In this document: positions 46,333 through 46,906 of the stretch, piece after piece
Position numbering within the stretch: position 1 is the stretch's first letter
How the letters are laid out: each line of letters opens with the position of its first letter
NCBI GenBank assembly: GCA_934167495.1
Contig: CAKPKP010000001.1
Location: 133,407 to 197,406, forward strand
Length of the DNA stretch: 64,000 nt
Direction of reading: 5' to 3'
Source of the DNA: an uncultured Clostridia bacterium
GTDB taxonomy: Bacteria; Bacillota; Clostridia; TANB77; CAG-508
Made by a program: the position numbers and the translations under genes
Notes under the pieces: model-generated
What the model was told of the DNA's origin: nothing
The model's database searches: none
Seen by the model: only the letters and a program-made list of their open reading frames with translations

Positions 46333-46906
46333 TTATTCGGCACGATGAAGATTTTCGATTCTCTTTTCAGTGGCACGGATTTCAGCGTTTATGCTTTCCA
46401 TAGCAAGCTGAAGATGATCTTTGGCCTCGAAGAGGTTCTCAAGCCTTGCTGTTAACATCTTAGCTTCAAGATTTTCCTCGGAAGAATTATTAGTAACCGA
46501 AATGTTATCTTCAATCTTCTCATTTAAAAGAAAATAATATTCATCAAGTTCGCCCTTGATGAGGATTTTCTTTTCACGCCTGATTCTTTTTGCTGAGCAG
46601 AATTCATGATTGTAAGCAACTTCCGGATGCTTGTAATGCTGCTGAGGATTCTTACGCTTCTGTCTAGCCTTTTTTCTCTGAATTCGCTTTCTTTCAGCTG
46701 TTTTATTGCATTTAGGGAAAAGACTGAAGAAGTCATTTTCATTATAATGTGTTTCAGCCTTAAAAAGTGAAATCCCTGATGAAACATCATCAAAATCGTC
46801 TTTCGGCGATATAGCCTCTGCATTAGCGAGAAGAACTTCAGGATGCTTGCGAATAATTTCCGCAAAAGTGCTTGGGGTACCTGTGACAATAAGGGTTGCT
46901 TCGCTC
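46333..46906 (-). CDS. GC-rich (~43-45% GC) orphan hypothetical protein with basic central segment and C-terminal coiled coil
   Basis: MSEATLIVTGTPSTFAEIIRKHPEVLLANAE...KRIQRKKARQKRKNP...coiled coil; ORF extends to 46923 but ATG 46906 has better RBS spacing. Confidence 0.5.

What the first reader, a model, noticed from the sequence alone, without database searches (positions are those of the whole stretch)
46333..46906. Second GC-rich orphan gene on the opposite strand, unrelated to its neighbours
The minus-strand ORF 46333-46906(46923) is about 43-45% GC in a 27% GC background. It sits alone between a bidirectional terminator and a long AT-rich spacer. It is convergent with an O-methyltransferase and divergent from a GT4 glycosyltransferase. 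The protein has an N-terminal MSEATLIVTGTPSTFAEIIRKHPEVLL segment, a highly basic centre (KRIQRKKARQKRKNP...KRIRREKK), and a C-terminal coiled coil. That layout suggests a nucleic-acid-binding or scaffolding function. Like the flotillin it looks horizontally acquired, and the two may share a donor.
Basis: partly seen in the sequence, partly recalled or inferred. Interest (0 to 1): 0.55.

Follow-up and report, generated by a model that had tools for sequence, protein, structure and literature searches.

The report
Clade-restricted orphan gene with foreign codons
This is a real 191-residue protein gene with no relatives outside one narrow lineage of uncultured gut Clostridia; it keeps a codon style unlike its host's and probably binds nucleic acid, but its function is unknown, so it is a modest curiosity rather than a discovery.

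Summary
The minus-strand ORF is real. It runs 46333-46908 (191 aa); an in-frame upstream ATG at 46923 would give 196 aa. It has its own near-consensus promoter and shares a bidirectional terminator with the O-methyltransferase gene. It is protein-coding: dN/dS is 0.18-0.56 overall and 0.04-0.05 in the basic centre.

GC is 38.6-39%, not the reported 43-45%, against 26.8% for the window. GC3 is 0.35 against about 0.1 for host genes.

It is a true orphan. Only three near-identical clusters appear among 5.8 billion proteins, all at this same locus. Nothing turned up in GTDB species representatives, phages, plasmids, IMG/VR, Pfam, NCBIfam, PHROGs, PADLOC or PDB.

It is not a strain-level island. 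Every contig seen for this lineage carries it, at the same GC. The nearest sister species (neighbour genes about 84-85% identical) lack it, and gene order breaks exactly here.

Its codon usage does match the flotillin gene's. However, the flotillin gene is vertically inherited and equally GC-rich in relatives, so "same recent donor" is not supported.

Function is inferred only: an acidic N-terminal part, an invariant very basic centre and a C-terminal coiled coil suggest an oligomeric nucleic-acid-binding protein. Two AlphaFold runs gave no usable fold.

The parts
46333..46908 (-). Coding sequence of the orphan protein X: 191 aa plus the stop codon at 46333-46335. Residues 1-68 are acidic, 69-119 strongly basic, and 120-191 acidic and helical (coiled-coil-like).
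   Evidence: ORF list and sequence. dN/dS is 0.18-0.56 overall and 0.04-0.05 in the basic centre. Indels are in frame and substitutions are mostly at third positions. Gene callers on public contigs give 191 aa. Charge and heptad analysis. AF2 helix 149-195 (196-aa numbering) has pLDDT 74-92.
46921..46923 (-). Alternative in-frame upstream ATG, giving a 196-aa form (MVKST-MSEATL...). Probably not the main start.
   Evidence: L003 and L095 lack it (GGACGG / GGAAGG in place of GGATGG). Allele P0251 has lost the downstream Met (M6I), so it may be used in some strains.
46920..46929 (-). Shine-Dalgarno-like AAAAGGATGG, 11-14 nt upstream of the ATG at 46908.
   Evidence: Read from the sequence. The relatives carry AAAGGACGG or AGAGGAAGG at the same place.
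46961..46989 (-). Sigma-70-type promoter of X: TTGACT, 17-nt spacer, TGcTATAAT (11 of 12 matches, extended -10).
   Evidence: Consensus scan. The element is kept in L002, L003 and L095. Function is inferred, not shown.
46280..46312 (.). Bidirectional intrinsic-terminator-like hairpin shared by the O-methyltransferase gene (+) and X (-).
   Evidence: Terminator scan reports it on both strands. It is conserved in L002 and L095.
46909..47136 (.). AT-rich divergent intergenic region between X and the GT4 gene. It holds the X promoter, AT-rich inverted repeats (47013-47063) and the GT4 promoter-like site (47054-47082, +).
   Evidence: 46924-47091 is 11.9% GC. Promoter scan. Inverted repeats I2/I3. 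By eye, the GT4-proximal part (TATTTACaTTT...TTATATAAAATA) recurs upstream of GT4 in other species, while the X-proximal part does not.
46259..46275 (+). Left copy of a 17-nt direct repeat (AAAATAACTTTAAATAT). It overlaps the stop codon of the methyltransferase gene.
   Evidence: the repeat finder families D3/D5/D7. A match this long arose in 0.2% of Markov shuffles of the two flanks. The left copy is not kept in L095. Significance is uncertain.
46946..46962 (+). Right copy of the 17-nt direct repeat (AAAATAACTATAAATAT), just downstream of the X -10 box. The two copies bracket terminator + X + 5' UTR (687 bp start to start).

Best explanation
X is a genuine, independently transcribed protein-coding gene that defines a family of its own. 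It entered or arose once in the common ancestor of a narrow lineage of uncultured, about 27%-GC human-gut Clostridia. It sits at a point where gene order was rearranged: the typA-methyltransferase block now abuts the GT4-ylbF-holA block. It has since been kept in every sampled genome of that lineage under purifying selection.

Shown: the gene model, its restriction to this lineage, its fixed position, selection on the protein (strongest on the basic centre), and a non-host codon dialect that is shared with the flotillin gene and does not look like it is decaying toward the host's AT-rich usage.

Inferred: the product is a cytoplasmic protein of about 22 kDa. Its invariant, highly basic central segment (19 K/R in 51 residues, flanked by invariant Cys/His) binds DNA or RNA, and its C-terminal amphipathic helix makes it dimerise or oligomerise. 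It would then be a small lineage-specific nucleic-acid-binding regulator or nucleoid/RNA-associated protein. One possibility is action at the divergent promoter region it shares with the GT4 operon. The ultimate origin is most likely an old transfer from an unsampled source with moderate GC, but that is not demonstrated.
For: Gene model:
- ORF, near-consensus promoter, SD-like site and shared terminator; all are conserved in relatives.

Coding and selection:
- dN/dS is 0.18-0.56.
- In the basic centre dN/dS is 0.04-0.05 even though dS is 1.6-2.0.
- Indels are in frame and changes are mostly at third positions.

Orphan status:
- 3 clusters among 5.8 billion proteins.
- Only its own cluster among 1.84 billion 50%-identity representatives in a profile search.
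- None in 185,579 GTDB species genomes, IMG/VR, phages or plasmids.
- One near-identical copy in JGI metagenomes.
- No Pfam, NCBIfam, PHROG, PADLOC or PDB match.
- No hit in six-frame translations of about 95 related loci.

Fixed in the lineage:
- All contigs read that carry the identical methyltransferase have it.
- Cluster 1 has 30 sequence variants on more than 170 contigs.
- Three diverged lineages carry it at the same locus at 37-39% GC.

Synteny break:
- In sister species (methyltransferase 83-84% identical) DHH and RelA/SpoT genes follow the methyltransferase.
- Relatives with GT4 about 80-85% identical have a DUF4912 gene and a GH57 gene upstream of GT4, and no X.

Protein layout:
-, and the AF2 C-terminal helix with pLDDT 74-92.

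Codon dialect:
-.

No AT-ward decay:
- Third-position W sites changed to S at 15% in X against 4.5% in flanking genes, while S sites changed at 39% against 34%.
Against: - No experiment or homology supports nucleic-acid binding. Basic plus coiled-coil is a weak predictor.
- AF2 models are poor (mean pLDDT 61.7 and 56.9), and Foldseek found nothing at E <= 0.001.
- "Invariant" Cys/His means little with three lineages that are 73-87% identical.
- No expression data were available.
- No donor was found, so origin by transfer is an inference from composition and distribution. The flotillin case shows that composition alone misleads in this clade.
- The polarised substitution counts are small. They are also confounded by a probable recombinant C-terminal segment in L002.
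Confidence: 0.5

Rival explanations
1. One reading: X is a recent horizontally acquired gene that came from the same donor as the flotillin gene and has not yet ameliorated.
For: - GC3 is 0.35 against about 0.1 in the host.
- Its codon usage fits the flotillin gene far better than the host: -0.98 against -1.49 nats per codon. It is the only such ORF in the window.
- It is absent from the nearest sister species and sits at a synteny break.
- A 17-nt direct repeat brackets the cassette.
Against: - The flotillin gene is not recent. Its 87%-identical orthologue lies in the same neighbourhood (next to cmk-plsC-typA-methyltransferase) in another species. That orthologue has GC3 0.28 and dS 0.58, like its neighbours (0.64-1.04). 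A 68%-identical homologue has GC3 0.42.
- X is present in all sampled genomes of the lineage, and in lineages whose X alleles differ by 13-27% in protein.
- No donor homologue exists in any collection searched.
- There is no integrase, transposase or tRNA next to X.
- There is no excess of GC-to-AT changes.
Confidence: 0.12
2. X is native or very old in the lineage. Its GC-rich, non-host codon dialect is actively maintained by the same gene-specific force that acts on the flotillin gene: selection on codon or mRNA properties, or GC-biased gene conversion at a recombination hot spot. Orphan status then reflects fast divergence or de novo birth rather than transfer.
For: - The flotillin gene shows that such a state is stable over dS of about 0.6-1 in this clade.
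- X behaves as stationary at GC3 of about 0.33. W-to-S change is 3.4 times more frequent than in the flanks, while S-site change is equal.
- There are signs of recombination. Four polymorphic sites occur in many combinations. L002 has a mosaic C-terminus, with dS 0.37 against 0.05-0.10 elsewhere in the gene.
- gBGC has been proposed for bacteria (PMC4450053), and selection on GC content has been reported (PMC2936529).
Against: - gBGC predicts G/C-ending codons, but much of the dialect is T-ending (CTT, GCT, GTT, ACT, ATT). Part of that is the ordinary lagging-strand T3 > A3 effect.
- Well-expressed housekeeping genes (pta, ack, pgi, typA) all use the host dialect, so translational selection is not general.
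- De novo birth from 12-25% GC intergenic DNA would not give 39% GC.
- The counts are small.
Confidence: 0.2
3. X is the surviving cargo of a decayed mobile element or prophage, for example a small anti-defence, exclusion or regulatory protein, domesticated at this site.
For: - It is a small, fast-evolving orphan with atypical composition and its own strong promoter.
- A flanking 17-nt direct repeat is present.
- The site just downstream of the methyltransferase gene is an indel hot spot, with small hairpin/repeat insertions in L002 and L095.
Against: - No match in PHROGs or PADLOC, 50,697 phage records, 72,556 plasmids or IMG/VR.
- No other element genes nearby; both flanks are housekeeping genes.
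- It is a single copy at one fixed locus.
Confidence: 0.1
4. It is not a protein gene: a chance ORF over a GC-rich non-coding RNA or a relic of foreign DNA.
For: - There is no homologue of known function.
- The AF2 confidence is poor.
- The region folds somewhat better than shuffles (z = -2.6 sense, -3.5 antisense).
Against: - dN/dS is well below 1, down to 0.04 in the centre with saturated dS.
- The frame is kept through two in-frame indels.
- There is no Rfam match above threshold; the only sub-threshold hits lie on the terminator.
- The folding z-scores include the terminator hairpin.
- The other five frames are closed or have no Pfam match.
Confidence: 0.03

Closest known systems
Taxonomically restricted (ORFan) accessory genes with atypical composition in bacterial genomes
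   Same: - No homologues outside a very narrow clade.
- Short and monocistronic.
- Composition and codon usage unlike the host's.
- Located at a synteny breakpoint.
- Faster protein evolution than its neighbours.
   Different: - It is fixed in every sampled genome of the lineage rather than patchy.
- It is under clear purifying selection.
- It shows no AT-ward amelioration.
- No mobile-element context.
Basic-region plus coiled-coil DNA binders (eukaryotic/viral bZIP as the archetype)
   Same: A strongly basic segment lies N-terminal to a long helical, heptad-patterned segment. That is the arrangement expected of a dimeric nucleic-acid binder.
   Different: - The PROSITE bZIP basic-region signature and the L-x6-L zipper pattern are both absent.
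- No Pfam bZIP hit.
- It has an extra acidic N-terminal part of about 68 residues.
- A non-helical NNSSEEN break separates the helix next to the basic region from the best-predicted helix.
- The resemblance is architectural only.
Small bacterial nucleoid-associated proteins and xenogeneic silencers built from an oligomerising helix plus a basic DNA-binding part (H-NS, Lsr2, Bacillus Rok; from my own knowledge of these families)
   Same: - Size of about 20 kDa.
- An oligomerisation helix plus a basic region.
- A single gene with its own promoter.
   Different: - The domain order is reversed: the helix is C-terminal here.
- No HMM match to any of these families.
- No recognisable winged-helix or AT-hook domain.
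DUF4912 protein, the gene that occupies the slot divergent from GT4 in related species (next to a GH57 branching enzyme)
   Same: - Same position and orientation relative to the conserved GT4 gene and its promoter.
- Also carries a long basic low-complexity stretch.
   Different: - No sequence similarity to X (BLASTP E = 0.4-1.3).
- It is AT-rich like its host and much longer (309-436 aa).
- X is a positional replacement, not a diverged copy.
The SPFH/flotillin gene of the same window (31125-32864)
   Same: It shares the non-host codon dialect (CTT, ATT/ATC, AAG, CAG, CGT, GCT, GTT) and raised GC3.
   Different: - The proteins are unrelated.
- It lies on the leading strand.
- It has thousands of homologues with a smooth identity gradient.
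- It is vertically inherited with the GC-rich state conserved.

Membership tests
Protein-coding gene (as opposed to a chance ORF or ncRNA) | Reading frame kept across diverged lineages, with in-frame indels only | tested here: met
   Three lineages at 73-87% identity have a 1-codon and a 2-codon indel, both in frame.
Protein-coding gene (as opposed to a chance ORF or ncRNA) | dN/dS below 1 and substitutions concentrated at third codon positions | tested here: met
   dN/dS is 0.18-0.56 overall and 0.04-0.05 in the basic centre. Differences by codon position are 29/22/66.
Protein-coding gene (as opposed to a chance ORF or ncRNA) | Expression signals (promoter, ribosome-binding site, terminator) | tested here: met
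   Consensus matches only: promoter 11 of 12 with an extended -10, and a bidirectional terminator. They are conserved in relatives. Actual expression was not testable.
Taxonomically restricted orphan gene | No detectable homologue outside a narrow clade in exhaustive searches | tested here: met
   All hits are at least 73% identical and sit at the same locus.
Recently acquired genomic island / HGT cargo | Atypical base composition and codon usage | tested here: met
   GC is 38.6% against 26.8%. GC3 is 0.35 against about 0.1. Codon log-likelihood ratio is +0.48.
Recently acquired genomic island / HGT cargo | Presence/absence polymorphism among close strains | tested here: not met
   All 23 contigs read that carry the identical methyltransferase have X next to it. 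Lineages L002 and L003/L095 have it too.
Recently acquired genomic island / HGT cargo | Identifiable donor or relatives in other taxa or mobile elements | tested here: not met
   None in any collection.
Recently acquired genomic island / HGT cargo | Mobility hallmarks at the borders (integrase, tRNA, flanking repeats) | tested here: inconclusive
   No integrase, transposase or tRNA nearby. A 16/17-nt direct repeat brackets the cassette (p about 0.002), but its left copy is not conserved in L095.
Recently acquired genomic island / HGT cargo | Ongoing amelioration (excess of GC-to-AT substitutions) | tested here: not met
   Polarised third-position changes are W>S 16 against S>W 6. Between clades the S/W and W/S differences are symmetrical (25 vs 19). 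W-to-S change is 15% against 4.5% in the flanks. The counts are small and there is a recombination caveat.
bZIP (basic region-leucine zipper) | PROSITE PS00036 basic-region signature, an L-x6-L-x6-L-x6-L zipper, and a Pfam bZIP HMM match | tested here: not met
   Regex scans were negative in all three lineages. No Pfam hit at E <= 1.
Ribbon-helix-helix (Arc/MetJ/CopG) or other known small DNA-binding folds | HMM match, or a confident beta-alpha-alpha fold in the N-terminal part | tested here: inconclusive
   No HMM match. AF2 of the full length and of residues 1-80 is low-confidence (pLDDT 61.7 and 56.9). Foldseek against PDB gave nothing at E <= 0.001.
Zinc-binding nucleic-acid-binding module | Four conserved Cys/His ligands in a recognisable spacing; bound metal | tested here: inconclusive
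   C67, H91, H94, H101 and C104 are invariant. But nearly the whole centre is invariant, and the spacing matches no family I could test. Metal binding is not testable here.
Phage protein / anti-phage defence system component | Match to PHROGs or PADLOC profiles, or to phage genomes | tested here: not met
   PHROG best E = 0.076; PADLOC none; phage tblastn none; IMG/VR none.

The most novel reading that the evidence does not exclude
X is a young, lineage-born member of a new class of bacterial nucleic-acid-binding proteins, built from an acidic head, a basic (possibly Zn-binding) centre and a coiled-coil tail. Together with the flotillin gene, it is held at a non-host codon dialect by a gene-specific force: selection on codon or mRNA properties, or biased gene conversion. 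On this reading, GC-rich islands in these about 27%-GC gut Clostridia are maintained states rather than scars of transfer.
Probability: 0.12. Interest if true: 0.6.

Novelty: new member of a known kind. Interest (0 to 1): 0.3.

Why it matters
On its own this is one more uncharacterised orphan in an uncultured gut bacterium.

Two points have wider use.

First, it is a clean, well-bounded example of a family-less gene that is nevertheless fixed. Its promoter is conserved and its basic core is under strong purifying selection. That makes it a tractable candidate for asking what such genes do in abundant but uncultured human-gut Clostridia (Hadza and other cohorts).

Second, it is a caution for annotation. 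In this clade a GC-rich, non-host codon dialect persists in a vertically inherited flotillin gene, and apparently in X too. "Atypical GC = recent transfer" therefore fails here. The force that maintains the dialect could be tested with population data that already exist.

Tried and rejected
Searches and models that found nothing useful:
- Profile and sequence searches: Pfam, NCBIfam, PHROGs, PADLOC, PDB sequences.
- The 5.8-billion-protein word-indexed search and the exhaustive profile search of 1.84 billion representatives returned only the gene's own clusters.
- GTDB genomes, IMG/VR, JGI metagenomes, phage and plasmid collections held no relatives apart from one near-identical copy.
- Two AlphaFold2 runs, full length and residues 1-80, had mean pLDDT 61.7 and 56.9. 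I ran no further search on such poor models.

Ideas tested and rejected:
- ncRNA: Rfam at gathering and E-value thresholds gave only sub-threshold hits on the terminator. The folding z-scores of -2.6 and -3.5 include the terminator hairpin.
- Overprinting on a known gene in another frame: the other frames are closed or have no Pfam match.
- A diverged copy of the DUF4912 gene that holds the same slot in relatives: no similarity.
- bZIP membership: signatures absent.
- Amino-acid composition as the cause of the high GC: GC3 itself is raised.
- Lagging-strand bias as the whole cause of the codon dialect: it explains T3 > A3, but not GC3 of 0.35 or the AAG/CAG preference.
- High expression or translational selection as a general cause: pta, ack, pgi and typA all use the host dialect.
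- The intragenic terminator-like hairpin at 46541-46562: it follows from the repeated peptide motif LIK-x-ELDE and is weaker in L003.
- Positive selection on the L002 C-terminus: dS is raised there as well (0.37), so a recombinant import is more likely.
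Full report
WHAT IS THERE

The window is 26.8% GC, and almost all of its ORFs lie on the + strand, which has positive GC skew throughout. The + strand is therefore the leading strand.

On the minus strand, an ORF runs from an ATG at 46923 (196 aa), or from an in-frame ATG at 46908 (191 aa), to a TAA at 46333-46335. It is convergent with a Methyltransf_3 O-methyltransferase gene (45675-46265). It is divergent from a GT4/Glycos_transf_1 gene, which is followed by ylbF and holA.

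Between the methyltransferase gene and the ORF lies a hairpin at 46280-46312 that scores as an intrinsic terminator on both strands. Upstream of the ORF, on the minus strand, lies TTGACT-17 nt-TGcTATAAT (46989..46961). This matches 11 of 12 consensus positions and has an extended -10. An SD-like AAAAGGATGG follows.

The spacer 46924-47091 is 11.9% GC.

The stated GC is not right. The ORF is 38.6-39.0% GC, not 43-45%. The stronger anomaly is at third codon positions: GC3 is 0.35, against 0.04-0.22 for nearly every other ORF.

IS IT A GENE?

Yes. The same frame is open in every relative found. It has one 1-codon and one 2-codon indel, both in frame.

Between the window and the most diverged lineage (L003), differences by codon position are 29/22/66. 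Nei-Gojobori dN/dS is 0.18-0.56.

By region, the basic centre has dN/dS of 0.04-0.05 although dS there is saturated (1.6-2.0). The N-terminal part has about 0.42. The C-terminal helix has 0.10 between the window and L003.

The promoter, the SD-like site and the terminator are conserved in the relatives. L003 and L095 lack the upstream ATG, and public gene calls give 191 aa, so 46908 is the likely start. One allele (P0251) has lost that Met, so the upstream ATG may serve in some strains.

Rfam finds nothing there except sub-threshold hits on the terminator. The other five frames are closed or match nothing.

WHO HAS IT?

Very few organisms.
- The word-indexed search of 5.8 billion proteins returned three clusters at 99, 87 and 74% identity, and nothing else.
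- A profile search that reads all 1.84 billion 50%-identity representatives returned only the gene's own cluster.
- There was no hit in one genome per 185,579 GTDB species, in IMG/VR, or in 50,697 phage and 72,556 plasmid records.
- JGI metagenomes held one near-identical copy.
- A profile search of the six-frame translations of all roughly 95 related loci fetched here found only those same copies.

Every copy with context sits at this locus, between the methyltransferase and GT4-ylbF.

A Hadza gut-metagenome contig (L087) is 100% identical to the window over 12.6 kb. The main cluster has 30 sequence variants on more than 170 contigs. All 23 contigs read that carry the identical methyltransferase also carry the ORF.

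So X is fixed in its lineage. It is also present, at 37-39% GC, in two further lineages (L002; L003/L095) whose flanking genes are 95-100% identical to the window's.

WHERE DOES THE LINEAGE STOP?

The next-nearest methyltransferases are 83-84% identical. In those genomes typA-methyltransferase is followed by convergent DHH and RelA/SpoT genes, not by X or GT4 (a similar arrangement in L097).

The nearest GT4 genes in GTDB species genomes are at most 85% identical. They come from uncultured gut Clostridia MAGs, some named Candidatus Scatovivens or Candidatus Merdicola. None has X or the methyltransferase nearby. In 36 of 80 such loci a DUF4912 gene occurs in the flanks of GT4, and in 35 a GH57 branching-enzyme gene does; where the ORFs were read (L004, L012) these two lie divergently upstream of GT4.

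By eye, the GT4-proximal promoter sequence is shared with those species, while the X-proximal part is not.

X thus sits exactly at a lineage-specific junction of two otherwise conserved blocks. It takes the slot that the DUF4912 gene holds elsewhere, but it has no similarity to that gene.

COMPOSITION AND THE "SHARED DONOR" IDEA

X's synonymous codon choices are unlike the host's. It uses Leu CTT, Ile ATT/ATC, Lys AAG, Gln CAG, Arg CGT, Ala GCT and Val GTT. The host uses TTA, ATA, AAA, CAA, AGA, GCA and GTA.

These choices do resemble the flotillin gene's (31125-32864). X scores -0.98 nats per codon under flotillin usage and -1.49 under host usage. X is the only other ORF in the window with a positive score: +0.48, with all the rest at or below -0.15.

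The flotillin gene, however, is not a recent import.
- It has thousands of homologues with a smooth identity gradient.
- Its 87%-identical orthologue in another species lies next to the same cmk-plsC-typA-methyltransferase block. That orthologue has GC3 of 0.28 in a background of about 0.1, and dS of 0.58. The neighbouring genes have dS of 0.64-1.04.
- A 68%-identical homologue has GC3 of 0.42.

Over that much divergence, an unselected excess of GC would have decayed (my calculation from the host's equilibrium GC3). The GC-rich dialect of the flotillin gene is therefore a maintained state.

Part of X's preference for T-ending codons is the ordinary strand effect in this clade. Minority-strand genes have T3/A3 of 0.43/0.39, against 0.34/0.51 for majority-strand genes. 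That does not explain GC3 of 0.35, or the AAG/CAG preference.

Housekeeping and fermentation genes (pta, ack, pgi, typA, der, ychF) all use the host dialect. General translational selection is therefore not the cause.

IS X DECAYING TOWARD THE HOST COMPOSITION?

Apparently not.

Between the two main clades, X's third-position S sites differ at 39%, much like S sites in GT4+ylbF (34%). W sites have become S at 15% in X, against 4.5% in the flanks. S/W and W/S differences are symmetrical, 25 against 19. This is the pattern of a sequence that is stationary at GC3 of about 0.33.

It also accounts for most of X's raised dS (0.83 against 0.2) and for its 78-80% nucleotide identity where the flanks are 95-97%.

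Polarised terminal-branch changes at third positions are W>S 16 against S>W 6.

Caveats:
- The counts are small.
- Parsimony can mis-polarise changes.
- L002's C-terminal 50 codons have dS of 0.37 against 0.05-0.10 in the rest of the gene. This looks like a recombinant import from an unsampled allele rather than positive selection.
- Within the main lineage, four amino-acid polymorphisms occur in many combinations, another hint of recombination.

I can say the data do not show amelioration. I cannot say what holds the composition. gBGC (PMC4450053) and selection on GC (PMC2936529) are published candidates. Head-on transcription-replication mutagenesis (reviewed in PMC7451550; disputed in 10.1101/2021.08.23.457454) could raise the rate, but it would not raise GC.

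BORDERS

There are no mobility genes, and no tRNA lies next to X.

A 17-nt direct repeat (16/17 identical) at 46259-46275 and 46946-46962 brackets terminator + X + 5' UTR. A match that long arose in 0.2% of Markov shuffles of the two flanks. The left copy is not kept in L095. In L095 and L002, small hairpin/repeat insertions lie between the methyltransferase gene and the terminator. I treat the repeat as unexplained.

THE PROTEIN

It has no signal peptide or membrane segment; the maximum Kyte-Doolittle 19-residue mean is 0.86.

- Residues 1-68 are acidic (pI 4.5).
- Residues 69-119 are extremely basic (pI 11.1, 19 K/R in 51 residues). They are almost invariant across lineages: TAERKRxQRKKARxKRKNPQxHYKHPxVAYNHExCSxKxxRREKK. 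C67, H91, H94, H101 and C104 are conserved.
- Residues 120-191 are acidic (pI 4.6) and helical. One heptad register places L/I/M at 9 of 15 a/d positions. AF2 predicts helix 149-195 (196-aa numbering) at pLDDT 74-92.

The rest of the AF2 model is unreliable, as is a second model of residues 1-80 (mean pLDDT 61.7 and 56.9). Foldseek against PDB gave no match at E <= 0.001. The bZIP signatures are absent.

MOST LIKELY MECHANISM (INFERRED, NOT SHOWN)

X is probably a cytoplasmic protein of about 22 kDa that dimerises or oligomerises through its C-terminal helix and binds DNA or RNA through the selected basic centre. A Cys/His metal site may contribute.

It is made from its own strong, conserved promoter. 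Because it is divergently transcribed from the GT4-ylbF operon across an AT-rich region with inverted repeats, a local regulatory role is one concrete and testable possibility.

My confidence levels:
- about 0.9 that it is a real, selected, lineage-restricted protein gene;
- about 0.4 that it binds nucleic acid;
- about 0.15 that it regulates the neighbouring operon.

VERDICT

"Recently acquired from the same donor as the flotillin gene" is not supported. X is fixed and syntenic in all relatives that have it, no donor exists in the collections searched, and the flotillin gene's GC-rich state is old and inherited.

This is a new, family-less member of the familiar class of taxonomically restricted accessory genes. 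The open question it raises, what keeps two unrelated genes at a non-host codon dialect, is of moderate interest and can be tested with existing metagenomic data.

Noticed in passing
window 31125-32864 (+); L097 8001-9704; L098 8001-9728: The SPFH/flotillin gene is 42% GC (GC3 0.31) in a 27% GC genome. It is equally GC-rich in relatives at 87% and 68% identity (GC3 0.28 and 0.42). Against L097 its synteny and dS match those of its neighbours. The GC-rich state is therefore long-term and inherited, not a recent transfer. The cause is unknown.
   Followed up: partly
window 30858-30930 (+): A tRNA gene lies about 200 nt upstream of the GC-rich flotillin gene, the classic position of an island integration site. 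I did not check whether the relatives share this arrangement.
   Followed up: no
window 33134-33568 (+) and 61792-62094 (+): Two further small ORFs have raised GC3 (0.30 and 0.26) and no Pfam match. Their codon usage matches neither the host nor the flotillin gene well (scores -0.15 and -0.16). The first is not similar to the ORF downstream of the flotillin gene in L097 (BLASTP E = 0.67).
   Followed up: partly
L095 739-990; L002 2604-2705 (between the methyltransferase gene and the shared terminator): Relatives carry small insertions that are absent from the window. L002 has one hairpin (TATTATAGGAAGTTCAGCGAACTTTCCTATAATA). L095 has two copies of a unit of about 45 nt containing such a hairpin, flanking a GC-richer piece of about 100 nt. 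The site looks like an indel hot spot or a target for a miniature repeat element.
   Followed up: no
window 46259-46275 and 46946-46962: A 16/17-identical direct repeat brackets the terminator, X and its 5' UTR. A match this long is rare in shuffles (p about 0.002), but the left copy is not conserved in L095.
   Followed up: partly
L002 2031-2603, last ~50 codons: The C-terminal coiled-coil part of the L002 allele differs from the window at dS 0.37 and dN 0.25, while the rest of the gene has dS of 0.05-0.10. This is probably a recombinant segment from an unsampled third allele type.
   Followed up: partly
window 47092-48429 (+); L004 and L012 upstream of GT4: The GT4 gene probably starts at the ATG at 47137 (430 aa, preceded by GAAGGGG), not at the TTG at 47092. 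In many related species it is divergent from a DUF4912 gene and a GH57 branching-enzyme gene, which looks like an alpha-glucan cluster. In this lineage that cluster is broken, and neither gene is present in the 64-kb window.
   Followed up: partly
about 80 related loci (L004-L098): Genes on the minority (lagging) strand in this clade have T3 > A3 (0.43/0.39). Majority-strand genes have 0.34/0.51. This strand effect shifts codon-usage scores and should be allowed for when calling foreign genes.
   Followed up: yes
L097 16494-17339 (-): In a related species, the RelA/SpoT-type gene that is convergent with the methyltransferase gene (the position X holds here) also has raised GC3 (0.30) and a flotillin-like codon score (+0.21). 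The equivalent genes in L089 do not (GC3 0.06-0.11).
   Followed up: no
window 47589-47788 (inside GT4) versus L003: A 200-nt patch of the GT4 gene is only 86% identical to L003, while the rest of the gene is 93-100% identical. This suggests mosaic recombination between the two lineages.
   Followed up: no
window 28232-29967 (+): A GGGtGRT-family protein (PF14057, E = 1e-199) is preceded by a 230-aa ORF with no Pfam match. Both have unusually high GC1 and GC2 but host-like GC3.
   Followed up: no
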